Below are positions 3,101-60,868 of a stretch of 64,000 bases of DNA, one piece after another. Every line of letters starts with the position of its first letter. Within the stretch, counting starts at the first letter, position 1. The notes under the pieces were generated by a model. It saw only the letters and a program-made list of their open reading frames with translations, was not told the DNA's origin and made no database searches. The position numbers and the translations under genes are program-made. The DNA comes from a bacterium (GTDB lineage Bacteria; JAMCPX01; DATBWZ01): assembly GCA_036514535.1 (NCBI GenBank), contig DATBWZ010000039.1, positions 5,919 to 69,918 on the forward strand, in the 5' to 3' direction.

Positions 3101-4023
3101 ATGCGGCCGGGGCAATAGAATACCTTCTTAAAGCAATTGAAATGGAGCCATACAATTATTTCAATTATTACCGTCTGGGGGAGATTTATTACAGTAAAAA
3201 GGATCTTAATAATGCGCTGAAAGCCTTTCAGGATTCTGTATCGCATAACAGTACGGATCTTTTATCCAATTTTAACATAGGAAGGGCGCTTGAGGACAAA
3301 GGGGAACTTGACAATGCCTACGCACAGTATGAGAAAGTTATTTCCAACATTGATAATAAGTTTTCTCCGGCATATTTCAGGATGGGAATTATTTCAGAAA
3401 AGAAGAATGACATTTCAAAATCTATTTCAAAGTATGAAAAATCTGTGGAATTTGACAAATCCAGGGCTGAATACTTTTATTATCTTGGGAAAGCGCAATA
3501 TTCTATGAACGATTTTGTAAAGGCGCAGCACAATCTTGAATCAGCGGTAAAACTGGCTCCGGAGTTTGCCCCATCTCATCTTGTTCTGGGAATGGTCTAT
3601 GATTATCTCGGGGATTATCAAAGAGCGCTTCACGAATACGCAATGAGTTTAAAACTTTCGCCACAGAATGCCGAACCGCTTATAAAGACCGCTAATATAT
3701 TGAGAGCCCAGGGAGAGTACGCAAAATCCTTTGAGGTTCTTAAGCAGGCAATGAAGGTGGATCCCTCCAGACCCAGCCTCTATTATTCCCTTGGACTTCT
3801 TTACGAGGAGAAGGGGGAACTTGAGCGCGCAATGGACAGTTATAAAAGAGCAATAAGCCGCGACGCTAATTATCCGGAACCATATTACAACCTTGGGTTT
3901 ATGTATTCAAAACTTGGCAGAAATTCCGAAGCAAGGGAAAACTTGCTAAAAACCCTATCTCTTGGCATTGGTTCTGCGCAGGCTAAGAAAGCTAAAGAAG
4001 CCCTTGCAAAATTGCCGCAATAG
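109..4023 (+). CDS. Giant TPR-repeat protein (1304 aa). N-terminal MJ0042-type CxxC...CxxC zinc ribbon, TPR block, ~300-aa acidic low-complexity linker, one TM helix, then a long TPR array.
   Basis: N-terminus CEKCGAMY...CTKCQHV (two CxxC pairs). TM segment LYLLIFAGLLILSSATGFYYW. Dozens of TPR-like 34-aa repeats (A/Y/L spacing, 'NPxxxxA' patterns). Long ORF with no competing frame. Confidence 0.85.
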   Translation: MVVKCEKCGAMYILSDEKLKAQEWKLPCTKCQHVTQLAPPGEGKPEGDKPSLSAVQAPVKEAAPVLPQETAELLNQFKANPKSKTFFPVAEYYFKEGKFEDAVNILNEGLKHNPAYLTARLILGRTYVKLERWKEAVSELERVCNQSRENTLAQKNLAIALKALGRIEEARRAIDVVKMFEPKDIEADNILKELIESGESLAQPEESATHEPKSEVEMEQPADSGLENILQAPEEESIEKETADVDISGAIDDLFAKAKGATEFTEGPAKQEEKGLPEEGAFSVDKEPLEDKALSNENLPVDKDVFEEESRESEEGLPVDKDIFDKDLEEGFGETGESKLPEEGSFTLGEDPSAELASEMTSEESQVEDQVGESAENAFNDLEKRTEDADSVVEGFNTGRFDAGVTADGVIEDVFKEEEGVEIETKVEQEPLTPQLDEEILAETRPKVVVSQPTGIYTAGTAAKETQKKIKIKPLYLLIFAGLLILSSATGFYYWEFEYTGTQPNVEKLITVSKGILKANEGKKIEAERLFTEATVAYSTDSVNGYLKSYDLFKRCIVLDHNNPKYFALLAESAAELSIFINDKRYLDESNMLSSRALEMAPDNHYSQRAIAHFYKVQGKPSEALVYITKAISTDTKDINALILQGEIQSMLPESLSDAEVSVNEAQSIRETAPGYYLLGKIYENKESFDLALTNFKKAVSLHPDYLKAILSAAGTAQRLGLYADGETLLTQAYSGINKFHIIEQKQIYLSMASLNLEIGKLENAKSDLEEVLKISKSDVQAFLMLGDVSVKLNRYEDAAGYYENALKIEPQNPEANYLAGAVYVRIKKYTQAIERLKKAVEGQPKEFKYHLGLGIAYLYSDQLNDSLTELKKAQEIDPKNSDVLYNLCNVYLKKGEKETALEVARKAVASAPDSIDARMALSRTYEQLERNPEAKAELEKAIKLDPKNGKPYSNLSRIFLKEGNIASAFAYGEKAVSLSKDPATCRTFADILEKKGDAAGAIEYLLKAIEMEPYNYFNYYRLGEIYYSKKDLNNALKAFQDSVSHNSTDLLSNFNIGRALEDKGELDNAYAQYEKVISNIDNKFSPAYFRMGIISEKKNDISKSISKYEKSVEFDKSRAEYFYYLGKAQYSMNDFVKAQHNLESAVKLAPEFAPSHLVLGMVYDYLGDYQRALHEYAMSLKLSPQNAEPLIKTANILRAQGEYAKSFEVLKQAMKVDPSRPSLYYSLGLLYEEKGELERAMDSYKRAISRDANYPEPYYNLGFMYSKLGRNSEARENLLKTLSLGIGSAQAKKAKEALAKLPQ
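930..1150 (+). repeat. Degenerate in-frame tandem repeats (~60 nt / 20 aa period) inside the acidic linker of the giant TPR protein.
   Basis: Recurring peptide units LPEEGAF / LPVDKDVFEEE / LPVDKDIFDKD / LPEEGSF and the matching nucleotide blocks (ctgcctgttgataaggatgtttttgag vs ttacccgtcgataaggatatatttgat). Confidence 0.45.
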
Positions 4024-4038
4024 CCTAATGACTCATTT

Positions 4039-5763
4039 ATGGTTCATAATAAAAAAATAATGCATCTTTTAATTATTCTTTTAATGATTATCTCCGGATG
4101 CGGAACTGCGGTTACAGCGACAAGGACTGGATCTACTTATCCTGTCAAGAGTTCCTATAACAGCAATGCGGATGCGAACTATCATTTCATTCTTGGCAAG
4201 GTGTATTATTTTGACGGTAAGTATGACGATGCTGAGAGGGAATTCAGGGAGGCAGTGAGACTTAATCCATTTGTGACTGATATAAGGGTTGAACTTGCTG
4301 TAATTCTTTTAAAAACCGGAAAAATTGCGGAGGCGAAAGAGGCTCTGCGGCAGGTGGCGGATACTGAGGAATACGCACCCCAACTGCATGCAATTCTCGG
4401 AAAAATATATTATGCGTCGAAGGAATACGATAATGCCGTAAAAGAGTTTGAAAAGAGCATACAGGAAAATCCGGATGACGCTGATGTGTACCTGGATCTG
4501 GGAACGGTCTATGCTGAAATTAATGAGTATGTTAAGGCTAGAGAGACATTGGAGAGTCTTTTAAAAGTGATTCCGGATTTCTTTCTTGCTTACTATTATA
4601 TAGCCAAAATAGAAATAGCAAGAAACAATCTGGATGAAGGAATTAAATATTACAATCTCTCCCTGCAGAATAATCCTGATTTTCTCGGGGCGTGGCTTGA
4701 ACTTGGAGAATTATATGAAAAGACCGATATGATTAATGAAGCCATAACTGCCTATAATAAAGCTCTGGACCTTATGCCGCAGAATATAAACATTCACGAG
4801 AAAATAGGATATCTCTATACAAAGAATGACAACGCAAAGGCAGCTATCAAATATTTTAAAGAAGCCTTGTCCATTGATTCAACGAACCTTGATCTCCACC
4901 TGAAACTTGGCATAATCTATTTCAGCGAAAAGGATTATGCCAGGGCTATTGATGAATTTAATTATATACTTGTTTCAATACCAGATAGCCCTGTCGCGCT
5001 CTATTATCTTGGAATGACCTATATTGAGAAAGGCGAGTATTCAAAAGGCAGAGCCGAATTATTGAAAATGCCATCCGACACCAAACTGTATACGGATTCC
5101 ATTATTTGGGTTGCGTTTTCGTATCAGAAAGAAAACAATCTCAAGGATGCAATTGATTATCTCAAGTCAAAAATATCTGATGGCGTTAAGTCTGTTGAAT
5201 TGTACAAGGTAACGGCTTCTTATCTCACTGATGCTAAATTATTTGACGAGGCAATTGAATTTGCAAACCAGGGGTTAAAGGATTTCCATGATTCGGAGAC
5301 GCTTTACTTCCAATTGGGTATTATATACGATGAGTATGGTAAGCCTGACATTGCAGAGGAAAAGATGCAGAAGGTCATTGATATAAATCCTGATAATCCG
5401 CTTGCTCTCAATTATATTGGATACACCTGGGCAGAGAAAGCGATTAATATTGATAAAGCAGAACAGATGATTAAGAAAGCCCTTGGGTTAAGACCAAACG
5501 ATGGATTTATTGTGGACAGCCTTGGATGGATTTATTACCAGAAGGGCCGGTACAAGGATGCTATGAAAGAACTCCAGAGGGCGTTAAAACTTGCCGGAGA
5601 TGATCCGATAATTTTTGAACATATTGGGGATACTTATTTTAAGCTTGGAAAGCCAGAAAAGGCAGTGGAATTGTACACCCATGCGCTTACCATGAAGATG
5701 AAGGATAAAGATTTTGTGCGGATCAAGGATAAATTGGGCATTCTTAAAAAGAATGCGCATTGA
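4039..5763 (+). CDS. TPR-repeat lipoprotein (574 aa).
   Basis: Signal peptide with lipobox (LLMIISGC). The body is TPR repeats throughout. Starts 16 nt after the preceding TPR gene. Confidence 0.8.
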   Translation: MVHNKKIMHLLIILLMIISGCGTAVTATRTGSTYPVKSSYNSNADANYHFILGKVYYFDGKYDDAEREFREAVRLNPFVTDIRVELAVILLKTGKIAEAKEALRQVADTEEYAPQLHAILGKIYYASKEYDNAVKEFEKSIQENPDDADVYLDLGTVYAEINEYVKARETLESLLKVIPDFFLAYYYIAKIEIARNNLDEGIKYYNLSLQNNPDFLGAWLELGELYEKTDMINEAITAYNKALDLMPQNINIHEKIGYLYTKNDNAKAAIKYFKEALSIDSTNLDLHLKLGIIYFSEKDYARAIDEFNYILVSIPDSPVALYYLGMTYIEKGEYSKGRAELLKMPSDTKLYTDSIIWVAFSYQKENNLKDAIDYLKSKISDGVKSVELYKVTASYLTDAKLFDEAIEFANQGLKDFHDSETLYFQLGIIYDEYGKPDIAEEKMQKVIDINPDNPLALNYIGYTWAEKAINIDKAEQMIKKALGLRPNDGFIVDSLGWIYYQKGRYKDAMKELQRALKLAGDDPIIFEHIGDTYFKLGKPEKAVELYTHALTMKMKDKDFVRIKDKLGILKKNAH

Positions 5764-30081: not shown

Positions 30082-31503
30082 TTAACCTATCTTTTTTCTT
30101 TCTCTTGCTGGATGAATTCCAAGTTTTTCCCTGTATTTTACCACTGTCCTTCTTGCAATATTGAATCCTATCTTTTTTAATTCTTCCATAATTTTCTCAT
30201 CTGTAAACGGGACCATGTGATTCTCCATTGAAATTATATTTGCAATTTTTGTTTTTAGCAATTCAGAAGATACATTTCCTCTGTCCGATGTATGTATGGA
30301 GGATGAAAAGAAATACTTCATTTCAAAAATTCCCTGCGGGGTATCCATGTATTTGCCCGTACAGGCTCTGCTTACAGTTGATTCGTGAAGATTAACGTTA
30401 TAAGCGATTTCCCTTAAAATAAGCGGTTTCAGATATTCAATTCCTTTGTCAAGAAATTCATGCTGGTATTTCACTATGCTCCTTGCAACAATAAGGATGC
30501 TCTGATTGCGTTTATGAATTCCACCTATAAGCCATATAGCGGATCTCATCCTGTCGTTTATATAGTTTCTAACTTCAGGTTTTATATCGGTTTTTGCTGT
30601 GAGATTGCTGTAATATCTGTTTATTTTTAAATGTGGCGTACCTTCTTCATTGAGAAAAGTGTGGTATTCGTTATCAATTTTTTTAACAATGACATCCGGG
30701 ATAATAGTAGGCGGTTCAATAGACGACAGACTTCTCCCTGGTTTTGGGTCAAGGGTCATTATTATTTTTAAGGCATCCATTACCAACTCTTCTTTGATCT
30801 TAAGTTTTTTTGCTATGATTTTGAATTTTTTAGCCTCAATTTCCTTCATGTATCCATTGAGTATGTCTTCTATAAGACTATTATGCAGGCCTTTATTATG
30901 CAGTTGTATTAGGAGACATTCTTTCATATCCCTTGCACCAATCCCTGCTGGTTCAAATTGGTGTATTTTTTTAAGAACATTTTCAATCTCGGATAATTTG
31001 TAGTCGGATGACTCTGCCAACTCTTCCAGTGGGGTGCCTAAGTAACCGTTTTCATCTATATTGCCTATTATAAGTGTTCCAATTTGTTTTTCCTCTTCGG
31101 AAAATTCACCCTGGCTCAGTTGGCATATAAGATTTTCGTAAAGCGACACCTGTCCTTTTATATCAGGTGATCCTTTAAAAAACTTGTCCGGAGACCCATA
31201 CACAGTGAAATCATCCCTGTTGTCTGATATTATTTTTTGTAACGTTTCAGAGATTTTTGAGTTTTCTTCATGGGGTTTCTCTGAGTCCTTAGCAGTTGGC
31301 TGAGACGGGTCTAAATTGGCAGAAAGGATGTCCTGCTGTTCGCTTTCCGGGGCCGCCTCTTCAATGATTGGATTGGCCTTCAGCGCTTCGGCTACAAGTT
31401 CAAGAAGTTCTGCCCTTGTGATTTGCAACAATTTAATTGCCTGCTGAAGCTGCGGCGTCATCAGCAGTTGCTGTGAAATTTTTAATGTCTGTTTAAGTTC
31501 CAT
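30082..31503 (-). CDS. rpoN: RNA polymerase sigma-54 factor.
   Basis: Gln/Leu-rich N-terminus and C-terminal RpoN box ARRTVVKYREKLG. 473 aa. Confidence 0.95.
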   Translation of the reverse strand: MELKQTLKISQQLLMTPQLQQAIKLLQITRAELLELVAEALKANPIIEEAAPESEQQDILSANLDPSQPTAKDSEKPHEENSKISETLQKIISDNRDDFTVYGSPDKFFKGSPDIKGQVSLYENLICQLSQGEFSEEEKQIGTLIIGNIDENGYLGTPLEELAESSDYKLSEIENVLKKIHQFEPAGIGARDMKECLLIQLHNKGLHNSLIEDILNGYMKEIEAKKFKIIAKKLKIKEELVMDALKIIMTLDPKPGRSLSSIEPPTIIPDVIVKKIDNEYHTFLNEEGTPHLKINRYYSNLTAKTDIKPEVRNYINDRMRSAIWLIGGIHKRNQSILIVARSIVKYQHEFLDKGIEYLKPLILREIAYNVNLHESTVSRACTGKYMDTPQGIFEMKYFFSSSIHTSDRGNVSSELLKTKIANIISMENHMVPFTDEKIMEELKKIGFNIARRTVVKYREKLGIHPARERKKIG

Positions 31504-52007: not shown

Positions 52008-53753
52008 ATGCCTTCAAGGATCGTAATATTGCCAGAAGATGTCGCAATTAAGATTGCTGCCGGTGAGGTTGTGGAGAGGCCTGCTTCGGTGATAAAGGAA
52101 TTGGTTGAGAACTCAATAGATGCCGGAGCGGACCGTATTGAGATCTCGGTTGATGGAGGCGGAGTAGAGTCCATTACTGTGAGGGACAACGGCTCAGGTA
52201 TAGATCCGGATGACTTGAAAATTCTTTTTAAAAGGCATGCAACAAGCAAAATCGCCACGGTTGAAGATATAACCAACATTTCCACATTCGGATTCAGGGG
52301 AGAGGCATTGACCAGCATTGCGCAGGTTTCAAGGCTGGAGTTGCTCTCAAAGATTCATGGCAATACATCGGGCATAAGAATATATACAGAGGGGGGGAGC
52401 ATCAAATCCTTTGAGGATGCAGGATGTCCGGAAGGAACCGCTATTATTGTCAGTGACCTGTTTTTCAATGTTCCGGCAAGGAAAAAATTCCTGCGCTCCA
52501 GGTTTACTGAAAATTCTATGATGACCTCTGTTGTAGAAAGATTTGGTTTAGCCCATCCCGAGATCTATTTCAAATTGATGCTTGACTCAAAAACTGTCAT
52601 TGATCTTCAATCTGTAAGGAACCTGAGAGAACGGGTTGCAATGATTTTTGGCGCAGAAATACTGAAAAAACTCGTGGAGCTGTCAGGCAGTTCAGATGAT
52701 ATTAAGGTCGCGGGTTTTGTTTCGCCGCCAGAGATCGCTGACATCCGCGGTTCATACCTCTATGTGAACAAAAGATTTGTGAGGGACAGGCTGCTGCAGC
52801 GAGCAATTATGAAGGCGTATTCCGAGACAGGCGGACGAAAGGAACCGTATTTTGCTATAATCTCCATTACGCTTCCTCCTGAAGATGTGGATGTCAATGT
52901 CCATCCCCAAAAATATGAAGTCCGGTTCAAAAAAACAGACAAAATCTTCAATGCTGTCCTCAAGGCAGTAATCTCAAGTTTCAGAAAGGTCATTCCGGAA
53001 ACTGTTCTGTCCGATGAGGCTCCAGCCCATACAGCATACAATAGAATTCAGGAATCCCTGGAATCCTATCTTTTGAAAGAGGGGTTTTTAAAATATAACG
53101 AGTTAAAAGAGACGGCAGTCAAGCGTCAGGTGACAGAACCCGGGAGCATATTTTATTCGCCCGATCTTGAAGTTTTGCTTGGGGAACTGGTTCCCAAATG
53201 CCAGATTATGAATAAATATCTGCTCTGCGAATCAGACAGTGGTTTGGTGATTATTGATCAGCACGCTGCCCACGAGATGCTTACATTTTATAAGTTAAAA
53301 GCATCCTATAGGGAAGGAACTGCCCAAGCGCAGTATCTTCTTGAATCAGCGGTGGTTGAACTCTCCTCATCTTCTCAACAGGTTCTTTTGAACCATAAAG
53401 AGTTTCTTTTAAAATTAGGCATTGATATTGAGGAATTTGGCAATAACGCTGTGATTCTAAGATCGCTGCCGGTTATGTTTAACGAGACAATGCCTTCGGA
53501 GGTTCTCTCAAGACTTGCCAGCGACCTTCAGGAGATTGAAACGATAGATGATGATCGCCAATTGAATAAAATGCTTTCCAGCATGGCTTGCTACTCTTCT
53601 ATTCGTGCTGGCAAGTCGTTGACACCGGAAGAGATGCAGTATCTTATAAATGACTTAAGGTGCACTGTTGCTTCTCCTTATTGTCCTCACGGGAGACCGG
53701 TGTTGAGACTTATAACATACAACGATCTTAATGAGTGGTTCAGGAGAAAATGA
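52008..53753 (+). CDS. mutL: DNA mismatch repair protein MutL.
   Basis: GHKL ATPase motifs (ELVENSIDAGA, RDNGSGI) and C-terminal dimerisation region. 581 aa. Confidence 0.93.
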   Translation: MPSRIVILPEDVAIKIAAGEVVERPASVIKELVENSIDAGADRIEISVDGGGVESITVRDNGSGIDPDDLKILFKRHATSKIATVEDITNISTFGFRGEALTSIAQVSRLELLSKIHGNTSGIRIYTEGGSIKSFEDAGCPEGTAIIVSDLFFNVPARKKFLRSRFTENSMMTSVVERFGLAHPEIYFKLMLDSKTVIDLQSVRNLRERVAMIFGAEILKKLVELSGSSDDIKVAGFVSPPEIADIRGSYLYVNKRFVRDRLLQRAIMKAYSETGGRKEPYFAIISITLPPEDVDVNVHPQKYEVRFKKTDKIFNAVLKAVISSFRKVIPETVLSDEAPAHTAYNRIQESLESYLLKEGFLKYNELKETAVKRQVTEPGSIFYSPDLEVLLGELVPKCQIMNKYLLCESDSGLVIIDQHAAHEMLTFYKLKASYREGTAQAQYLLESAVVELSSSSQQVLLNHKEFLLKLGIDIEEFGNNAVILRSLPVMFNETMPSEVLSRLASDLQEIETIDDDRQLNKMLSSMACYSSIRAGKSLTPEEMQYLINDLRCTVASPYCPHGRPVLRLITYNDLNEWFRRK

Positions 53754-54709
53754 AAAAAGGAATCAAAAATCATCCTGTCATAATAATTGGCGGTCCCACC
53801 GGGAGCGGGAAAACAGGTCTTGCGCTGTTTTTAGCAACAAATTTAAATGGGGAAATTATCAATGCCGATTCGCGGCAGATCTACAGATTTATGGATATAG
53901 GGACCGCAAAGCCAACCCCGGAACAGCTTAGTACTGTAAAACACCATCTAATAGACATGGTGGATCCTGATCAGGATTTTAATGCACAACTATTCATAAA
54001 GTTTGCAGAAAAAGCATTTAGAGATATAATAAACAAAGGGATGCGTGTATTTGTCGCTGGTGGGACGGGGCTCTATATATCTGCTTTTCTCAATGGCATG
54101 GTTGAAGGCGCTCCTCCTAACAATCGGGTGAGGTCGAGGTTGAGGACAGCTCTCAAAAAGTCCGGAGAGAAGCATATGTACGATCTTTTGAAGAAAATTG
54201 ATCCTGAATCCGCAAGATTGATTCATCCAAACGATTCTTACAGGGTGCTGAGAGCCCTGGAGATTTACGAAACAACAGGAGTTTCTCCATCAAAGTTGAG
54301 AAAGGAGAAATGGAAAAGCCAGAGTGTCAAAAATAATGTTCTTTATCTCTGTATTGATATGCCAAGAAAAAAGTTATATGATAATATAAACAAAAGAGCC
54401 GATATGTTGATAAAAAAAGGGTTAGTAGACGAGGTAAAATACCTGCTTTCAAACGGGTATGGTGAGGAATTAAAATCCATGCAGAGCTTTGGTTACAGGG
54501 AGATTGTTCGTTATGTGAAGGGAGAGTCTTCTCTGGCAGATGCTATTGAGGAGTTAAAGAAAAATACAAGACATTACGCTAAACGCCAGGTTACATGGTT
54601 CCGCGGAGTAAAGGGCGTAAGGTGGGTTAATCCTGATTCGGAGCAAGGGATTTTACAAACATGCAGGGATTTTTTGGAGGAAGTTGACTGTGATAAATCA
54701 GCCGCTTGA
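53750..54709 (+). CDS. miaA: tRNA dimethylallyltransferase.
   Basis: P-loop [15 protein letters not shown] overlap with the mutL stop at 53750-53753. The ORF-track start at 53735 lies inside mutL. Confidence 0.9.
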
Positions 54710-55667
54710 CTTTGAGAAGCATATTGTTGAACTTGAAAAGAAGGTTGAGGAGTTAAAACATATCCAGGGCAATGATGTTGATATCTCCGAAGAGATTTCA
54801 AAGATTGAAATAAAGGTTCAAAAATTGCTCATAGAAACGTTTTCTAAATTAACCCCCTGGCAAAAAACTCAGCTTGCCCGGCATCCACAACGCCCGCATT
54901 TTCTTGATTATGTTCCTGAGATCTTTCAGAACTTTCTTGAGTTTCATGGAGACAGGGTATTCGGTGACGACCCTTCGTTATGCGGAGGATTTGCAACTTT
55001 TGATGGTAGAACTGTAATGATTATCGGGCATCAAAAGGGCAGGACCGCCAAGGAAAAATCATACCGTAATTTCGGGATGTCTCATCCGGAGGGATACAGA
55101 AAAGCGATAAGGCTTGTGAAACTTGCAGAACATTTTGGAAAGCCAGTGATAACATTTATTGATACACCTGGCGCCTTTCCTGGTATCGGTGCAGAGGAAA
55201 GGGGACAGGCGCCAGCAATTGCCGAATCTATTTATACAATGTGCGGACTGAATATGCCGATTATCTCTGTCGTTATTGGAGAAGGTGGAAGCGGAGGGGC
55301 ACTTGGGATAGGAGTATGCGATAGATTGCTGATGCTTGAATATGCAGTGTATTCCGTTATATCTCCGGAGGGATGCGCCTCAATACTCTGGAAAGACCCA
55401 AGCAGAGCAGAGGAAGCGGCTGAATGTCTGCGACTTACTGCGCAGGATATTCTTGAGTTTGGTATTGTAGATGAAATAATCAGAGAGCCGCTCGGCGGCA
55501 GCCACAGAAATCTCAGAAAAACTGCACTTAGTATTAAGGAGCATATACAAAAACATATTAATGAATTAGATGGTATCCCTACAGATGAACTGCAGAAAAA
55601 ACGGTATGAAAAGCTAAGAAAGGTCGGTACTTACAGGGATCAAGACAGGATTTATAGGACTTTCTGA
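54684..55667 (+). CDS. accA: Acetyl-CoA carboxylase carboxyltransferase alpha subunit.
   Basis: Conserved ...[10 protein letters not shown]...GEGGSGGAL... carboxyltransferase core. 327 aa. Confidence 0.92.
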
Positions 55668-55668
55668 A

Positions 55669-57078
55669 ATGTCATTGGTAATAGGTATAAGTTTTGGAGA
55701 TAAAAAAATCGGCGCATGCCTTTTGGAAACATTCTTCAGAGGGTGGAAATTTTTGGATTTTCGCGAAAGCGAGATTAAAAATGCGGGATCCGCCGCAGAA
55801 ATTACTCAGATACTAAAAAAGATGTTTACTCCGGAGGAGGTCTCTGCCGGCAATTTTCTATGTTCTCTTCCAGGCATGGATGTGTTCTACCGGGCAATGA
55901 ATATTCAGTTCAGCGATCCGGTAAAGATTCAACAGGCTGTTGAGGTAGAGATGGATACTCTCCTGCCTGTCCCGCTTGAAGATATTGTTGTTACCTGGAC
56001 TAATATTGCAAAGAGAACGGTACAGGATAATGTATTAGCGTATGGAATAAAAAAAGAGAAGATTTTATATTTTCTTGATATTCTTCGTGCCGCAGGAATT
56101 GAACCAATAATTTTAGACTGGGATGCAGTTTCGCTTTTGAATTTACTTTCCAGGCTCCCTGATTCACCAGACGGAGGATTAACAGGCATCATTCATCTGG
56201 AAGATGACAGAACCATTCTGTGTTTTAAATCAGCGTCAGGTCCGGCGTTTGCGAGAACGCTCAGGCAGGGCGCTGATTTGCCTACGGAATTAAACAGAAC
56301 ATTGAGATCCAAAATAGACTCTGAAAAAAGAGAGATTCGCAAAATTTTTCTTTCAGGGCATGCAGAACGATTAAAGGTTGTATCCCGGCAATTAGAGCAG
56401 TTTTTTGAGACGACGATAATTGAGCTTATGAATTTTTCCGATTATATCCCCGAGTGTTCAGTATTGCGGCCGGACATTCAAAGCAAAGCCCTGCTCCCCC
56501 TTTCAATAGCCCTACGGCGCATCTTGAAGAAGGCGGTTGGCGGGAATTTCAGAAGGGGAGAGTTTGCTTATACTGCCTCACTTGAAGAAGTCAAGACCAG
56601 TCTTGCAGCTACAGGAATTATAGGATGCATTATACTTGCGCTTGGGATTGGAAACATTATATATAAATATGTTGACAGGAAAACCGTATATAAAAAAATA
56701 CAGTCGCAGCTTTCTGAAGTTTGTTCCGTATCTGTCAGCGGGTATGACCCCTATATGGACTGTGCAAAGGAATTGAAAAAGGCGTATATGGAAAAACTCC
56801 AGCGAAGATTCTCAAGGGTAAAGGCGGTGGATATTTTAAGAGAATTCAGTGTGCGCGTTTCCAATGCTCAGATAATTGATATATCAGAAGTATCAATGGA
56901 TGGAGAAAAGATCAAAATAAAGGGGACTGCGCCAGCTCTTGAGATAGTAGAAAAGATAAAAAACGATCTCTCAAAATCTGAACTATTTGGCTTGGTTGAG
57001 ATTATTGATTCAAAAAAGAGTATTGATGGGGCATCGTTTGGCTTCAGCCTTACAGTAACTCTGAAGCCAGCAGGATAA
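55669..57078 (+). CDS. GspL-like protein: PilM-type actin-like cytoplasmic domain, single TM, periplasmic PilN-like domain.
   Basis: PilM-like region QQAVEVEMDTLLPVPLEDIVVTW. TM helix TGIIGCIILALGIGNIIY near residue 330. 469 aa. Confidence 0.55.
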   Translation: MSLVIGISFGDKKIGACLLETFFRGWKFLDFRESEIKNAGSAAEITQILKKMFTPEEVSAGNFLCSLPGMDVFYRAMNIQFSDPVKIQQAVEVEMDTLLPVPLEDIVVTWTNIAKRTVQDNVLAYGIKKEKILYFLDILRAAGIEPIILDWDAVSLLNLLSRLPDSPDGGLTGIIHLEDDRTILCFKSASGPAFARTLRQGADLPTELNRTLRSKIDSEKREIRKIFLSGHAERLKVVSRQLEQFFETTIIELMNFSDYIPECSVLRPDIQSKALLPLSIALRRILKKAVGGNFRRGEFAYTASLEEVKTSLAATGIIGCIILALGIGNIIYKYVDRKTVYKKIQSQLSEVCSVSVSGYDPYMDCAKELKKAYMEKLQRRFSRVKAVDILREFSVRVSNAQIIDISEVSMDGEKIKIKGTAPALEIVEKIKNDLSKSELFGLVEIIDSKKSIDGASFGFSLTVTLKPAG

Positions 57079-57611
57079 TGAAGGAAAAGATCAGGCAATT
57101 CTACTTGTCGCGCACAAACCGGGAGAAAATGATTCTCCTTGCAGGAACTGCGTGCGTTTCATTGATAATCCTTTTCATGGTTGCTTCCCCGCTGATAAAC
57201 AGTTACAGAAAGATTGACAGGATGGTTTCCGACAAAAAAGAAGAACTCCTTCGCGTCCTGGAATTGAAAAAGGAGTATGGTGGAATTGATAGTATATCTG
57301 CAGGTACAAAATTTTTTGAAAAGGGTACCTCTCTGCTTGGTTTTCTGGAGGGGATCACATCAAAAATAGGGATGAGCGTCCAGTCTTTCAGACCAGGAGA
57401 GGGTGAAACTTACGGAAAATATAAAGAGATCAACGCAGAGATAAAGTTTGCCGGAATATCCCTTCAGGAAGTAACAGAATTACTGTATTTTCTTGAGTAC
57501 AACAATAATCATTACACTGTCTGGGTTAAAAAATTATATTTAAAAACAACTTTTAAGGATCCCAATAAACTTGATGTTACAATTAATCTTGGAGCATACC
57601 AATATTTATGA
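57078..57611 (+). CDS. GspM/PilO-like bitopic inner-membrane protein.
   Basis: Single N-terminal TM (MILLAGTACVSLIILFMVASPLI), then a ~140-aa periplasmic domain. Start abuts the previous gene. Confidence 0.5.
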   Translation: MKEKIRQFYLSRTNREKMILLAGTACVSLIILFMVASPLINSYRKIDRMVSDKKEELLRVLELKKEYGGIDSISAGTKFFEKGTSLLGFLEGITSKIGMSVQSFRPGEGETYGKYKEINAEIKFAGISLQEVTELLYFLEYNNNHYTVWVKKLYLKTTFKDPNKLDVTINLGAYQYL

Positions 57612-58567
57612 ATATTAAAAAGGTTATAAAAATAAATAAAGTAATAAATATATTTAAAGTCGCTTATAGTTTTTTTAAAGATAAATTTACCGGGGAAAAT
57701 AGCAAAAAAGTTTTGCCCAAAATTGCGTATGCCGGATGTTTTTTAATCAGTTTTGTTTTTTTTGTTATACTCACTTTTCCCTATGATTCCCTGAAGACTC
57801 GTATAATGTACGAATTCTCGGCACGGCAAATGGGAATTCTTTCTATATCCGGTCTTTCCTATGCATTCCCCTTTGGGTTAAAGTTCCTCGGAATGGAGTA
57901 CTATGGCACTGATAGCATGAAGGATGTTGAATTTCTTAAAGCCAATTATATAAAAGTAAGACAGTCTTTGTTCTCACTCTTTACAGGAAAAATTGATCTG
58001 TCATTTTCTTCCGCTCTTTATAGTGGAAAGAGCAATGGCAGAATACAGTTGAAAAAGGACGGAGGCCGGCTTTATATCAACACCAAAAATATTGAATTCG
58101 GGGAATATTCGCCATTGTCCCAGCTTTTCGGGCTAAAAGTAACCGGCAGATTAAATGCAATGTGTGATATTGAGGATCAGGGGTTTAATATATCAAAGAG
58201 CAACGGTGAAATAGATATAAATATTGAAAATTTTATTATGGAGGAATCTTCTTTTTTGAGTCTTTTCAGACTTCCGAAACTGACAATTCAGAGTATCTCA
58301 GGAAAAGCAAAGATTACCAATGGGCTGTTGAAGGTTGATACCATTACGCTTACCGGTGGTGACATAAACGGCACGGCAAATGGGGAGATTAATCTCAGAC
58401 ATCCGTTTAACAACAGTATCCTTGACCTTCAGGTGAGGTTTATGTTCAGCAGTGTTTATCAGGAAAAATTAAAAAGTATTCTGGACCCTTTAAACATAAA
58501 GCAGGACCCCGGCGGATTTTATGTAATGAACATAGGGGGAACCGCAGGACTGCCAAGGCTTAAGTAA
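57608..58567 (+). CDS. GspN-like membrane-anchored periplasmic protein.
   Basis: N-terminal TM (AGCFLISFVFFVILTF), beta-rich body. Size and operon position after L/M homologues. Confidence 0.4.
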   Translation: MNIKKVIKINKVINIFKVAYSFFKDKFTGENSKKVLPKIAYAGCFLISFVFFVILTFPYDSLKTRIMYEFSARQMGILSISGLSYAFPFGLKFLGMEYYGTDSMKDVEFLKANYIKVRQSLFSLFTGKIDLSFSSALYSGKSNGRIQLKKDGGRLYINTKNIEFGEYSPLSQLFGLKVTGRLNAMCDIEDQGFNISKSNGEIDINIENFIMEESSFLSLFRLPKLTIQSISGKAKITNGLLKVDTITLTGGDINGTANGEINLRHPFNNSILDLQVRFMFSSVYQEKLKSILDPLNIKQDPGGFYVMNIGGTAGLPRLK

Positions 58568-58573
58568 TCCGTA

Positions 58574-60868
58574 ATGAAAAGAATATTTTTTTTTGTGGGC
58601 ATGGGGATTTTTTTTGTTGTCTTCCGCACAACAGCAGAGGTCAGCGCAAGTAAATTGGACCGTGTTCTTAGATTGGGTCTTGAGAGGGAGCAACTGCATC
58701 GCCCGTCACCACTTATTAATTATGACAATGAGGGCAGGGTGAAGGTATTGATCCGGACAGACAGTCCTTTCGGGGTTAGGAAAATGGTTGAAGGGCTTGG
58801 CGGCAAAACAGGGGCTTTTTCAGGCGGTATTCTTACTGGCAGTGTGCCGGTTGACGCTCTCACAGAATTAGCCGGTTTTCCGGATGTTTTTAGCATATCC
58901 GCTTCAAGAAGGCTCAAACCGCTTCTTGACAAAAGCGTATCTGCCATCTCTGCCGATAGCGCACATTCGGGTTCTGGTATTGCCAGGGGGGTAACAGGAC
59001 GGGATGTAATAGTCGGCATAGTGGATACGGGGGTTGATTTTAAACACCGTGTTTTTAAAAATTCTGACGAAAGCACAAGATTTCTCTCTATATGGGATCA
59101 GAATATTTCTGGAACTGGACCATCTGATTTCGGGTACGGGACCGAATGCGATGTTAATTCTATAAACAAAGGATTATGCAACGAAAAGGATATGGATCCC
59201 GATTACAGCCACGGCACGCATGTTACGGGAATTGCGGCTGGTTCTGACGCAAAATACAACGGCGTTGCGCCCGGGGCAATGATTGTCGGAGTTAAGACTA
59301 TTTACGATGAGGCATCGGTAATTGACGGAGTTGACTATATATTTAATCTTGCCGGAAAATACAATAAACCCGCGGTTGTCAATCTGAGCCTCGGAGGGCA
59401 GTATGGTCCGCACGACGGGACAAGTCAGTTTGATACTGCACTGGAGGCTTTGCAGGGCAACGGGAAGATAATTGTTGCTGCTGCAGGGAACGATGGGTCC
59501 TATAAGGTGCACGTTGAGAGCAATGTAATCCCTTCAGCAGAATCCTGGGCTGTTTTTGATGTTTATCCGAATGAGACCGATGTATTGCTGGAGGTATGGT
59601 ATAATGCCCTGGACCTTATTAATTTTGCTGTTGCAGGATTAAAGGACAATCAGGTCTGCAAGACAGATTTTATTGCTCCTGGACAGAGCAATCAGTTCAC
59701 TATATCCTCCTGTTCCTCCACTAATTGCGGCAACGCAATAATAGATGCATCCGCAACCGTCAATCCCAATAACTCCAGGCAAGTGTATGTTCTTATATCC
59801 GCCCCATCAGCAACGCAGCCTCTTTCCAGGTGCAGGTGGGCTATTGGCGCACAGAGCAATTCTGCTGATGCAGATGGCGGAAGTTTTGATGGATGGATAA
59901 CCACAGCGAATGCGGAATTCGGTGCATCGGAGTTAATACCCGGATTGGGAACAACCGTCCCTGGTGATAGCAATAAAACCATATCCACTCCTGCTGACGC
60001 AAAGAATATTATTGCAATAGGGTCATTTGTAACGAAAAACGAGTGGACTGCTCAGGATGGCAATAAATATACTTGTAATGGATGTACACCCGGAGACATC
60101 TCGGCTTTCTCCTCAAGGGGACCTACAAGGGATGGAAGGCTAAATCCGGCTATTGCCGCGCCCGGAGAATGGGTTGCATCTTCAAAATCCTCAAATGTCT
60201 CGCTAATAGATTCAAAACTCCTGCTGCCGGATCAAGGGTTCTTTATGCTGGCAGGGACAAGTATGGCATCTCCGCATGCGGCGGGGGCTATAGCGCTGAT
60301 GCTTGATTGGAATCCTAATCTTGGACCGGCGGCGGTCAAAAATTATATAACAGCAAATGCAAAAAACGATTCCTTTACGGGATTAAATAGGGCAAGCAAT
60401 CCGGATAATAGATGGGGACACGGCAAACTGGATATCCTGAAGGCACTGCAATCAATAGCCCCGGCTGCGATAGATGCAACACCGCCGCAGATTTCTGATG
60501 TGGTGGTTAATGTATCATCGGATTCAACCGTTTCAGTGTCCTGGAAGACAGACGAATTGAGTGATAGTTCAATAAAGGCTTCTTTTGGAAACGGGGAAGA
60601 GATAGCCGCAGTAGAAATGAGTTTTGTTACAGACCATACTCTAATCTTCTCTGGTCTGGAGACAAGAAATCTCTTCAGATTGGATATTTCATCCAGGGAT
60701 CCGAGGGGAAATGCTGGTTCGGTAACAAACCTGCCTGTGTTTGTACCGGGAAAAGGATGCGGTTGCACTGCCTCCGGAGGATCCAATGACTCTTTTGCAC
60801 CCGTATTTTTATTGGGTCTTTTTTGGCTCATCTTCAGATTAAAATCAAGAAGAAGCATCAAGTTATAA
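58574..60868 (+). CDS. Secreted subtilisin-like serine peptidase (S8), with Fn3-like domain and a C-terminal Cys-containing motif + TM + basic tail (sorting-signal-like).
   Basis: Signal peptide. Catalytic triad contexts VGIVDTGVD (Asp), HGTHVTG (His), GTSMASPHAAG (Ser). C-terminus GKGCGCTASGGSNDSFAPVFLLGLFWLIFRLKSRRSIKL. Confidence 0.85.
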   Translation: MKRIFFFVGMGIFFVVFRTTAEVSASKLDRVLRLGLEREQLHRPSPLINYDNEGRVKVLIRTDSPFGVRKMVEGLGGKTGAFSGGILTGSVPVDALTELAGFPDVFSISASRRLKPLLDKSVSAISADSAHSGSGIARGVTGRDVIVGIVDTGVDFKHRVFKNSDESTRFLSIWDQNISGTGPSDFGYGTECDVNSINKGLCNEKDMDPDYSHGTHVTGIAAGSDAKYNGVAPGAMIVGVKTIYDEASVIDGVDYIFNLAGKYNKPAVVNLSLGGQYGPHDGTSQFDTALEALQGNGKIIVAAAGNDGSYKVHVESNVIPSAESWAVFDVYPNETDVLLEVWYNALDLINFAVAGLKDNQVCKTDFIAPGQSNQFTISSCSSTNCGNAIIDASATVNPNNSRQVYVLISAPSATQPLSRCRWAIGAQSNSADADGGSFDGWITTANAEFGASELIPGLGTTVPGDSNKTISTPADAKNIIAIGSFVTKNEWTAQDGNKYTCNGCTPGDISAFSSRGPTRDGRLNPAIAAPGEWVASSKSSNVSLIDSKLLLPDQGFFMLAGTSMASPHAAGAIALMLDWNPNLGPAAVKNYITANAKNDSFTGLNRASNPDNRWGHGKLDILKALQSIAPAAIDATPPQISDVVVNVSSDSTVSVSWKTDELSDSSIKASFGNGEEIAAVEMSFVTDHTLIFSGLETRNLFRLDISSRDPRGNAGSVTNLPVFVPGKGCGCTASGGSNDSFAPVFLLGLFWLIFRLKSRRSIKL

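What the first reader, a model, noticed from the sequence alone, without database searches (positions are those of the whole stretch)
55669..58567. Isolated GspL/GspM/GspN-like trio, with no secretin, ATPase or pseudopilins, immediately upstream of the sorting-signal protease
Three consecutive, translationally coupled genes encode a PilM-PilN-fusion (GspL-like) protein, a PilO/GspM-like protein and a GspN-like protein. These are the inner-membrane assembly-platform components of T2SS/T4P machines. They sit between accA and the S8 protease, without gspD/E/F/G/pilQ/pilB in the window. Either the machine is split across the genome, or the trio has been co-opted for something else. The adjacent secreted protease is a candidate substrate.
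Basis: partly seen in the sequence, partly recalled or inferred. Interest (0 to 1): 0.55.

Follow-up and report, generated by a model that had tools for sequence, protein, structure and literature searches.

The report
Detached T2SS gspL-M-N genes with protease
Three inner-membrane parts of a type II protein secretion machine sit apart from the rest of that machine's genes, inside a housekeeping operon and next to a protease that is probably one of its cargoes; this is an unusual gene layout of a well-known system, not a new system.

Summary
Three tightly coupled ORFs lie at 55669-57078, 57078-57611 and 57608-58567, between accA and an S8 protease. No other T2SS or T4P gene is in the window or on the remaining ~7.8 kb of the contig downstream.

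They are GspL, GspM and GspN of the Leptospira/Myxococcota/Nitrospirota-type T2SS. N passes the curated TIGR04411 model (170.8 bits, cutoff 50). L is a PilM-like domain, one TM helix and a periplasmic domain. All three are colinear homologs of the L-M-N genes that end canonical gspG-N clusters.

The nearest relative (L 40%, accA 68% identical) has the same mutL-miaA-accA-L-M-N-S8 order. It also carries a kinase-σ54 regulator-gspCDEFGHIJ operon with no L/M/N, 5.4 kb downstream. A further relative has the same truncated C-J operon, with no L/M/N within 10 kb upstream or directly after gspJ.

So the machine is split and the trio supplies the missing parts. It is neither a paralog set nor a co-opted module. 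The C-J operon of this particular MAG could not be located.

The protease keeps a MYXO-CTERM-like tail (GCGC, TM helix, basic end). Published work links such tags to the T2SS, and GspN to lipid-anchored cargo, so it is a plausible substrate.

This is ordinary biology in an unusual arrangement, in a poorly sampled lineage.

The parts
52008..53753 (+). mutL, first gene of the overlapping gene chain that contains the trio
   Evidence: Pfam HATPase_c_3, DNA_mis_repair and MutL_C on the called gene. It overlaps miaA by 19 nt. The same gene precedes the trio in relative L007, at 51% identity.
53735..54709 (+). miaA (tRNA isopentenyltransferase)
   Evidence: Pfam IPPT. It overlaps accA. Conserved in L007 at 53% identity.
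54684..55667 (+). accA (acetyl-CoA carboxylase carboxyltransferase alpha); its stop codon is 1 nt before the gspL start
   Evidence: PF03255 at 476 bits and NF004344 at 480.6 bits. Junction sequence. 68% identical to the L007 ortholog.
55669..57078 (+). gspL-like gene: cytoplasmic PilM/actin-like domain (about residues 1-260), the conserved FRRGEFAY motif, one TM helix (313-331), and a periplasmic coiled-coil plus alpha/beta domain (about 385-469)
   Evidence: PilM_2 28.8 bits (GA 27), PilN E=0.06, TIGR01175 E=1.3e-8. PDB sequence hits to PilM 2ych and 3jc8. Model Foldseek hits to PilM, FtsA and the GspL/EpsL/PulL cytoplasmic domains. TM helix. Full-length homologs lie between gspK and gspM. 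Family census: PilM_2 55/55, T2SSL 37/55, PilN 36/55, GspL_C 22/55.
57078..57611 (+). gspM-like gene: bitopic, TM helix 18-36
   Evidence: PF04612 T2SSM E=2.7e-5, 24.9 bits (below GA 27.8); NF040576 E=0.003. BLASTP E=5e-11 to the M gene of gsp cluster L005. 52% identical to L007 M, which has a T2SSM hit on record. TM helix.
57608..58567 (+). gspN-like gene (Leptospira-type GspN): bitopic, TM helix 39-57
   Evidence: TIGR04411 T2SS_GspN_Lepto equivalog at 170.8 bits (cutoff 50), E=4e-50, aligned over 36-317 of 319 residues. BLASTP E=1e-17 to the gene after gspM in L005. Weak YhdP hit; the family shows YhdP, DUF748 and T2SSN signals.
58574..60868 (+). Secreted subtilisin-family (S8) protease, candidate T2SS cargo; an alternative start at 58601 gives the 755-aa gene call
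   Evidence: PF00082 at 144.8 bits. Signal-peptide-like N-terminus and a D151/H214/S563 triad. 49.5% identical to the syntenic L007 gene.
60755..60865 (+). MYXO-CTERM-like C-terminal sorting tag of the protease (residues 728-764): GCGC, spacer, hydrophobic helix, then RLKSRRSIKL
   Evidence: TIGR03901 at 17.6 bits, cutoff 20, E=0.0037. Tripartite architecture read directly from the sequence; it is the only such tail among window ORFs of at least 150 aa. GCGC, helix and basic tail are conserved in L007. Architecture as defined in PMC11980579.

Best explanation
The trio encodes the GspL-GspM-GspN inner-membrane assembly-platform subunits of a Leptospira/Myxococcota/Nitrospirota-type T2SS. In this lineage the T2SS genes have been split into two transcription units.

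One unit is a kinase-σ54 regulator-gspCDEFGHIJ operon carrying the secretin, ATPase, platform protein and pseudopilins. It lacks L/M/N. It was seen in relatives and is presumed to lie elsewhere in this genome.

The other unit is this one, where gspLMN were inserted behind mutL-miaA-accA and are followed by an S8 protease.

By analogy with characterised systems (inferred):
- GspL's PilM-like cytoplasmic domain docks the GspE ATPase.
- Its periplasmic domain pairs with GspM.
- GspN, an AsmA-like bitopic protein, assists export of lipid-anchored cargo.

The protease is exported by Sec and held in the inner membrane by its C-terminal helix. It is probably lipidated on the GCGC cysteine and clipped by a CPBP-type 'myxosortase'. 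The T2SS would then hand it to the cell surface.

Shown here: gene identities, topology, coupling, conserved synteny, and the complementary gene content of the two operons in relatives.

Inferred: that this MAG has the C-J operon, that the protease is a T2SS substrate, and that GspN serves its lipid anchor.
For: Identity:
- N passes TIGR04411.
- L, M and N are colinear homologs (E=6.5e-22, 5e-11 and 1e-17) of the last three genes of a gspG-H-I-J-K-L-M-N cluster.
- The L fold matches PilM and GspL cytoplasmic domains.
- Each protein has one TM helix in the expected position.

Split machine:
- Relative L007/L010 has mutL-miaA-accA-L-M-N-S8, and 5.4 kb downstream HK-σ54RR-gspC-D-E-F-G-H-I-J ending without K/L/M/N.
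- L099 (GspC 84% to L010) has the same C-J operon. It is syntenic only from the kinase to gspJ, with no L/M/N in the 10 kb upstream or directly after gspJ.
- In other lineages the same T2SS type is usually one contiguous C-to-N cluster: 41 of 53 determinable loci.

Cargo link:
- The S8 gene and its GCGC/TM/basic tail are conserved in synteny at 49.5% identity.
- MYXO-CTERM proteins need the T2SS for surface display (PMC11980579; Haft preprint).
- GspN is required specifically for lipid-anchored T2SS cargo and is AsmA-like (PMC12802150).
- N-family members give weak YhdP, DUF748 and T2SSN hits.

Precedent: Legionella lists lspLM as a unit separate from lspDE and lspFGHIJK (PMC8879694).
Against: - The C-J operon was not found for this organism. 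It is not in the 64 kb window or on the rest of the contig downstream.
- None of the five GspC homologs whose sample of origin was checked comes from a sample known to hold this organism, and no hit in the GspC search was named with the MAG's VII00 locus tag.
- The MAG is absent from the species-representative genome collection.
- L does not hit the curated T2SSL or GspL_C models itself, and M is 3 bits below the T2SSM gathering score.
- The tag is below the TIGR03901 cutoff, and no CPBP/myxosortase gene is in the window.
- Conserved synteny was seen in full in only one independent relative. A third lineage shows only L-M on a 1 kb contig.
- Adjacency does not prove a substrate relationship.
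Confidence: 0.8

Rival explanations
1. Redundant paralogs: a complete T2SS cluster elsewhere in the genome has its own L/M/N, and this trio is a second, specialised or spare copy.
For: The rest of this genome was not seen. In most other lineages L/M/N are contiguous with C-K.
Against: In the two relatives where the main cluster was seen (L010, L099) it stops at gspJ with no L/M/N. The contents of the two operons are complementary rather than duplicated.
Confidence: 0.06
2. Remnant: this MAG has lost the secretin/ATPase/pseudopilin operon, and the trio is a leftover kept only because it sits inside an essential operon.
For: No C-J operon could be tied to this organism despite several attempts.
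Against: All three ORFs are intact, with preserved TM helices and family motifs. The L protein is identical in all four assemblies, and M and N score the same against the family profiles (M within 4 bits) in each. The order persists across a divergence where accA is only 68% and L only 40% identical.
Confidence: 0.06
3. Co-opted module: GspL/M/N plus the protease act on their own, for example as an inner-membrane platform for sorting or anchoring the tagged protease, without a secretin, ATPase or pseudopilus.
For: The trio and the protease are translationally coupled and conserved together. They are uncoupled from the rest of the T2SS in this window, and in L099 no L/M/N lies next to the C-J operon.
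Against: There is no precedent for this. GspL's cytoplasmic domain is a docking site for GspE in characterised systems. Relatives keep a C-J operon that would be non-functional without L/M.
Confidence: 0.05
4. Type IV pilus alignment complex: the three genes are PilM-N (fused), PilO and an accessory protein serving a T4aP.
For: The best Pfam/NCBIfam and PDB hits for the L protein itself are PilM and PilN, not T2SSL.
Against: M hits T2SSM rather than PilO. N is a T2SS GspN equivalog. There is no pilP or pilQ next to it. Full-length homologs sit in clusters with T2SSG/J/K and, in relatives, with GspC and GspD N0-type secretins. 37 of 55 family members hit T2SSL.
Confidence: 0.03

Closest known systems
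Contiguous gspC-N clusters of Myxococcota, Nitrospirota, Binatia and Geobacter MAGs, and the Leptospira-type T2SS defined by TIGR04411
   Same: The same protein families: a GspL with a PilM-like N-domain, GspM, Leptospira-type GspN, GspC with a PDZ domain and a GspD N0 secretin. Gene sizes and the L-M-N order also match.
   Different: There the genes form one cluster, C-D-E-F-G-H-I-J-K-L-M-N. Here L-M-N are detached, fused onto mutL-miaA-accA and followed by a protease. The relatives' main cluster also shows no gspK hit.
Legionella pneumophila Lsp T2SS (lspLM listed as a unit of its own)
   Same: T2SS genes are distributed over several units, with L and M together and apart from D/E and F-K (PMC8879694; the placement at separate chromosomal loci is from my own knowledge of the Legionella literature).
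   Different: Legionella has no gspN (PMC12802150). No substrate gene is coupled to lspLM. It is a different T2SS subtype (classical proteobacterial GspL).
Myxococcus xanthus MYXO-CTERM / myxosortase (MrtX) / T2SS surface-display pathway
   Same: The cargo has a tripartite C-terminal tag with a GCGC motif, a TM helix and a basic tail. T2SS dependence of such cargo is published (PMC11980579).
   Different: The tag scores below the TIGR03901 cutoff (17.6 against 20). The organism is an unclassified low-GC MAG, not shown to be Myxococcota. No myxosortase gene was seen. Nothing has been tested experimentally here.
Acinetobacter baumannii / Klebsiella GspN (PulN), an AsmA-like factor for T2SS export of lipoproteins
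   Same: A bitopic GspN that goes with lipid-anchored T2SS cargo (PMC12802150). N-family members here give weak AsmA-like (YhdP, DUF748) and T2SSN hits.
   Different: The window's N does not match classical PF01203. The putative lipid anchor here would be C-terminal (Cys tag), not an N-terminal lipobox. The fold of this N could not be modelled (pLDDT 39).
T4aP PilM-PilN-PilO alignment subcomplex
   Same: Homologous folds: an actin-like PilM domain, and bitopic PilN/PilO-like partners.
   Different: PilM and PilN are fused into one protein. There is no PilP or PilQ. The third gene is GspN. Homologs lie in gsp clusters, not pil clusters.

Membership tests
T2SS GspL | Cytoplasmic actin-like (PilM/GspL-cyto) domain | tested here: met
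   PilM_2 at 28.8 bits against GA 27. PDB PilM hits at E=1.6e-5. Foldseek probability 1.0 to PilM and to GspL/EpsL/PulL cytoplasmic domains; the model pLDDT is only about 70 in this domain.
T2SS GspL | Single TM helix followed by a periplasmic alpha/beta domain | tested here: met
   One TM helix at 313-331. The C-terminal 385-469 is modelled as beta-beta-alpha-beta-beta at pLDDT about 80. PilN E=0.06.
T2SS GspL | Match to the curated T2SSL (PF05134) or GspL_C (PF12693) models | tested here: not met
   The window protein hits neither model. Among 55 family members, 37 hit T2SSL and 22 hit GspL_C, so the family qualifies but this divergent member does not on its own.
T2SS GspL | Encoded between gspK and gspM in gsp clusters | tested here: met
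   Full-length homologs P0002 and P0004 lie between T2SSK and T2SSM genes. In the window it is followed by gspM, but no gspK precedes it.
T2SS GspL | Binds the N1 domain of the GspE ATPase | not testable with these tools
   No GspE from this organism is available, and there is no complex prediction tool.
T2SS GspM (PF04612) | Passes the Pfam gathering score | tested here: not met
   24.9 bits against 27.8, E=2.7e-5. The orthologs in L007, L006 and L179 have T2SSM hits on record.
T2SS GspM (PF04612) | Small bitopic protein with an N-terminal TM helix, encoded directly after gspL | tested here: met
   177 aa with a TM helix at 18-36 and a 1-nt overlap with L. E=5e-11 to the M gene of gsp cluster L005.
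Leptospira-type GspN (TIGR04411) | Passes the curated equivalog cutoff over the full length | tested here: met
   170.8 bits against a cutoff of 50; residues 36-317 align to profile positions 3-279 of 280.
Leptospira-type GspN (TIGR04411) | Encoded after gspM in a T2SS locus | tested here: met
   It overlaps gspM by 4 nt. It is homologous (E=1e-17) to the gene after gspM in L005.
Classical GspN (PF01203) / AsmA-like beta-taco fold | Match to PF01203, or a demonstrable beta-taco fold | tested here: inconclusive
   There is no PF01203 hit for the window protein, only a weak YhdP hit (21 bits, E=9e-5). Among 10 family members: YhdP 2, DUF748 2, T2SSN 1. The single-sequence model was unusable (pLDDT 39). 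No PDB hit.
Complete T2SS (secretin GspD, ATPase GspE, platform GspF, major pseudopilin GspG, plus C and L/M) | All core genes present in the genome | tested here: inconclusive
   They are absent from the window and the contig. In relative L007/L010, C-J and L-M-N are both present on one 31.6 kb contig.
MYXO-CTERM sorting signal (TIGR03901) | Passes the model cutoff | tested here: not met
   17.6 bits against 20, E=0.0037.
MYXO-CTERM sorting signal (TIGR03901) | Tripartite tail: Cys motif (generic GCGC), TM helix, Arg/Lys-rich end at the extreme C-terminus | tested here: met
   ...PGKGCGCTASGGSNDSFAPVFLLGLFWLIFRLKSRRSIKL. The tail is conserved in L007. The definition is taken from PMC11980579.
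MYXO-CTERM sorting signal (TIGR03901) | A cognate CPBP-family myxosortase in the same genome | not testable with these tools
   No PF02517 protein was found among the window genes scanned. The rest of the genome is not available.
T4aP PilMNOPQ alignment complex | Separate pilM, pilN and pilO genes followed by pilP and the secretin pilQ | tested here: not met
   The M- and N-like parts are fused in one ORF. The second gene hits T2SSM, and the third is GspN. No pilP or pilQ is present.

The most novel reading that the evidence does not exclude
The gspL-M-N-protease unit is a self-contained module that, in this organism, works without a secretin, ATPase or pseudopilus. One possibility is an inner-membrane platform in which the AsmA-like GspN extracts and sorts a C-terminally lipidated (MYXO-CTERM-like) protease. 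A milder version is better supported: the trio still serves a T2SS, but GspN's role in handling lipid-anchored cargo extends from N-terminal lipoproteins to Cys-type C-terminal sorting tags, and this occurs outside the Myxococcota. I put that milder version at about 0.3.
Probability: 0.05. Interest if true: 0.75.

Novelty: new member of a known kind. Interest (0 to 1): 0.3.

Why it matters
On its own this is a correct annotation of three hypothetical proteins as GspL, GspM and GspN, plus an example of a T2SS whose genes are split between a regulated operon and a housekeeping operon.

Two points give it modest wider value:
- It comes from a lineage with no close representative among 185,579 species genomes. 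That lineage's main gsp operon lacks K/L/M/N, so automated T2SS detectors that expect one locus would call the system incomplete.
- It places a GspN gene 6 nt upstream of a protease with a Cys-type C-terminal sorting tag. Two recent experimental results are relevant: MYXO-CTERM cargo needs the T2SS, and GspN is needed for lipid-anchored cargo. Together they suggest a testable idea, that GspN also serves C-terminally lipidated cargo.

Tried and rejected
- Word-index homolog searches with L and N returned almost nothing. They missed the 40%-identical relative that exhaustive HMMER later found.
- I looked for this organism's own gspC-J operon in several ways:
  - I read the contig to its downstream end.
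  - I searched with the relative's GspC and checked names, accessions and samples for the plausible hits P0166-P0176, P0195 and P0168. No hit carried a VII00 tag. Each of the five hits whose sample was looked up (P0168, P0170, P0171, P0173, P0195) came from another sample or had a different GC content.
  - I scanned JGI metagenomes with a GspC alignment.
- A scan of species-representative genomes with the L alignment found no relative.
I obtained it later through a protein id.
The single-sequence model was unusable (pLDDT 39), so no fold search was run on it.
- PDB sequence searches with M, N and the N-family profile gave nothing meaningful.
- Promoter and terminator scans were at chance level and add nothing about operon boundaries.
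- Readings considered and rejected: a T4P PilMNO complex, a redundant paralog set, and a decaying remnant (see the rival explanations).
Full report
OBSERVATION

The window has three consecutive + strand ORFs at 55669-57078 (469 aa), 57078-57611 (177 aa) and 57608-58567 (319 aa).

- The accA stop is followed by one base and then the first ATG.
- The first and second genes share one base (TAATG).
- The second and third overlap by four bases (ATGA).
- The third ends 6 nt before the ATG of a 764-aa S8 protease.

Upstream, mutL, miaA and accA also overlap one another. So seven genes, mutL-miaA-accA-L-M-N-S8, form one uninterrupted chain. Consensus promoter and terminator scans of the region were at chance level and say nothing either way.

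The same genes are called on four independent contigs of the same organism (two ENA assemblies, one Logan, one JGI), with an identical L protein. NCBI holds the protein as HEY4715969.1, 'MAG TPA: hypothetical protein VII00_02580 [bacterium]'.

WHAT THE THREE PROTEINS ARE

The third protein is the firm anchor. It matches NCBIfam TIGR04411, 'type II secretion system protein GspN' (Leptospira type, equivalog), at 170.8 bits against a cutoff of 50, over essentially its whole length.

The first protein just passes Pfam PilM_2 (28.8 bits against 27). It has a sub-threshold PilN match at its C-terminus and matches solved PilM structures by sequence.
- An AlphaFold model from a four-sequence alignment is of moderate quality: mean pLDDT 61, about 70 in the N-domain and about 80 in the C-domain.
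- Foldseek nonetheless finds PilM, FtsA and the cytoplasmic domains of GspL, EpsL and PulL at probability 1.0.
- It has one TM helix at 313-331. That helix is preceded by an FRRGEFAY motif that is invariant among its four aligned homologs.

The second protein hits T2SSM at E=2.7e-5, which is 3 bits below the gathering score. It has one N-terminal TM helix.

Exhaustive HMMER found 1,989 relatives of the first protein. Of 55 sampled members, all hit PilM_2, 37 hit T2SSL, 36 hit PilN and 22 hit GspL_C. This is therefore a GspL family that still looks like a PilM-PilN fusion.

Genomic context settles the assignments. Full-length homologs of the first protein lie between T2SSK and T2SSM genes in gspG-H-I-J-K-L-M-N clusters. 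The window's second and third proteins are homologous to the two genes that follow there (E=5e-11 and 1e-17). The labels GspL, GspM and GspN are justified.

IS THE TRIO REALLY ISOLATED?

Yes, within what can be seen.
- Pfam scans of the window's other substantial ORFs, together with the Pfam hits on record for the genes at 45-52 kb, find only housekeeping functions. These include TPR proteins, an Opp transporter, ispDF, cysS, FadL-like porins, the rpoN-PTS(Ntr)-lptCAB region, pyrG, kdsA, ftsH, folP, glmM, mutL, miaA and accA.
- HMMs that I built from GspC-K of related clusters hit nothing in the window or in L008, which reaches the downstream end of the 75 kb contig.
- A prepilin N-terminal motif scan found none, against three or four in each control cluster.

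RELATIVES EXPLAIN THE ARRANGEMENT

The nearest full-length relative of L is P0006, at 40% identity. It sits on a 31.6 kb contig with the same order, mutL-miaA-accA-L-M-N-S8.

Gene-by-gene identities to the window are mutL 51%, miaA 53%, accA 68%, L 40%, M 52%, N 38.5% and S8 49.5%. The arrangement has therefore survived considerable divergence.

On that contig, 5.4 kb downstream of the protease, lies a HAMP/PAS histidine kinase, a σ54-type response regulator and then gspC-D-E-F-G-H-I-J. After that the cluster stops, and the next genes are on the other strand. That operon contains no K, L, M or N.

A genus-level relative of that organism is L099 (GspC 84% identical, on a 200 kb contig). It has the same kinase-to-gspJ block but different flanks. 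It has no L/M/N or accA in the 10 kb upstream, and a different S8-like ORF follows gspJ.

So in this clade the T2SS is genuinely bipartite. The two operons are complementary in content, and their distance from each other varies. That matches the window, where the second operon is simply not nearby.

In other lineages with the same T2SS type (Myxococcales, Binatia, Geobacter, Nitrospirae and others), the usual layout is one contiguous C-D-E-F-G-H-I-J-K-L-M-N cluster. L follows the pseudopilin genes in 41 of 53 loci where this could be judged. Some of the remaining 12 probably reflect the low sensitivity of my small HMMs.

The detached trio is therefore a derived rearrangement, and not a unique one. 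In Legionella, lspLM are likewise listed as a unit separate from lspDE and lspFGHIJK (PMC8879694).

WHAT COULD NOT BE SHOWN

I could not find the C-J operon of this particular organism.
- The MAG and its clade are absent from the species-representative genome collection. The L-alignment scan found no relative there, although the window's own sequence fits the search pattern. The best GspE in that collection is only 62% identical to the relative's.
- I checked the sample of origin for five GspC homologs at a plausible distance. All came from other samples, and most had a different GC content.

The statement 'this genome has the rest of the machine elsewhere' therefore remains an inference from relatives.

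THE PROTEASE

It has a signal-peptide-like N-terminus, an intact D151/H214/S563 triad, and the tail ...GKGCGCTASGGSNDSFAPVFLLGLFWLIFRLKSRRSIKL. This is the tripartite architecture that defines MYXO-CTERM: a Cys motif (generically GCGC), a TM helix and a basic end (PMC11980579).

It scores 17.6 bits against TIGR03901's cutoff of 20, so I call it MYXO-CTERM-like and not a member. The tail is conserved in the syntenic protease of the relative.

Published work is relevant here:
- MYXO-CTERM proteins are cleaved by a CPBP-type myxosortase, probably after lipidation of the cysteine. They need the T2SS to reach the cell surface (Haft preprint).
- A 2025 study shows that GspN is an AsmA-like beta-taco protein. 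It is required specifically for T2SS export of lipid-anchored cargo in Acinetobacter and Klebsiella (PMC12802150).

The window's N gives a weak YhdP hit. Across ten family members there are two YhdP, two DUF748 and one classical T2SSN hit. This is consistent with that relationship but does not prove it.

A gspN gene placed 6 nt upstream of a gene for a probably lipid-anchored surface protease is thus a coherent pairing. The substrate relationship is inferred from conserved adjacency, the tag and the literature. It has not been demonstrated.

MECHANISM (BEST ESTIMATE)

GspL, GspM and GspN are made from the mutL-miaA-accA transcript. They insert as bitopic inner-membrane proteins. They join GspC, D, E, F and the pseudopilins, which are made from a separately regulated operon, probably σ54-dependent. 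GspL docks GspE, GspL and GspM form the periplasmic platform, and GspN assists lipidated cargo.

The protease is Sec-exported, tethered by its C-terminal helix, processed at the Cys motif and moved to the surface by the T2SS.

Confidence that the trio is the L/M/N set of a split T2SS: about 0.8. The rival explanations (paralog set, remnant, autonomous module, T4P complex) together hold about 0.2.

NOVELTY AND SCORE

The proteins belong to known families, and the system is a known one. Split T2SS loci and T2SS-dependent tagged proteases are both documented.

What is new is a member from an unsampled lineage with an unusual and conserved placement: inside a housekeeping operon and coupled to a tagged protease. 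There is also a hint that GspN's lipid-cargo role may extend to C-terminal Cys tags.

I rate it 'new member of a known kind', interest 0.3.

Noticed in passing
L010:6362-9994; L011:6128-9827; L016:3-3558; L099:6352-9990: In the relatives, the gspC-J operon is always directly preceded by a HAMP/PAS histidine kinase and a σ54-type response regulator. This suggests σ54-dependent regulation of the main T2SS operon, whereas L/M/N ride on a housekeeping operon. The window carries rpoN at 30082-31503 (-).
   Followed up: partly
L010:10001-18670; L099:9989-18385: The main T2SS operon of this clade ends at gspJ. It has no detectable gspK as well as no L/M/N. Where gspK is, or whether it exists, is unknown.
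   Followed up: no
L099:18568-20889: A second S8-like ORF directly follows gspJ in this relative. It is only distantly related to the window's protease (83 bits to my S8 profile) and is cut by the locus end. This is another subtilase-T2SS adjacency in the clade.
   Followed up: no
L017:6370-7488; L106:15579-16601; L114:14276-15205; L119:17553-18578; L130:17540-18541: In several Nitrospirae-type and high-GC clusters, the ORF between gspJ and gspL scores best against my GspN profile, not the GspK profile. That implies a J-N-L-M order. It rests only on small home-made HMMs.
   Followed up: no
window:57608-58567 and alignment A5: Leptospira-type GspN proteins give weak, recurrent Pfam hits to the AsmA-like families YhdP and DUF748, and one hit to classical T2SSN. 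This hints that TIGR04411 proteins share the beta-taco fold recently described for GspN. The fold could not be modelled here.
   Followed up: partly
window:49694-50456 (-): A nucleotidyltransferase-like protein (NTP_transf_5/DUF6036/DUF2204, 194 aa) overlaps a 68-aa ORF. They are the only minus-strand pair in a long run of + strand housekeeping genes, and could be a toxin-antitoxin-like insertion.
   Followed up: no
window:5764-6522 and window:10018-11646: Two sizeable ORFs (252 aa and 542 aa) have no Pfam family at E<=0.001. The first follows two very large TPR proteins (109-5763). The second follows an Opp-type ABC transporter.
   Followed up: no
whole window; Neither this MAG nor its nearest relative has a close representative among 185,579 species-representative genomes. 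The best GspE match there to the relative's GspE is 62% (Nitrospirae and Myxococcales MAGs). The phylum of the organism remains undetermined.
   Followed up: partly
(method): The word-index protein search missed a full-length 40%-identical homolog (P0006) that the exhaustive HMMER search found. Negative results from the word-index tool are therefore weak for this lineage.
   Followed up: yes
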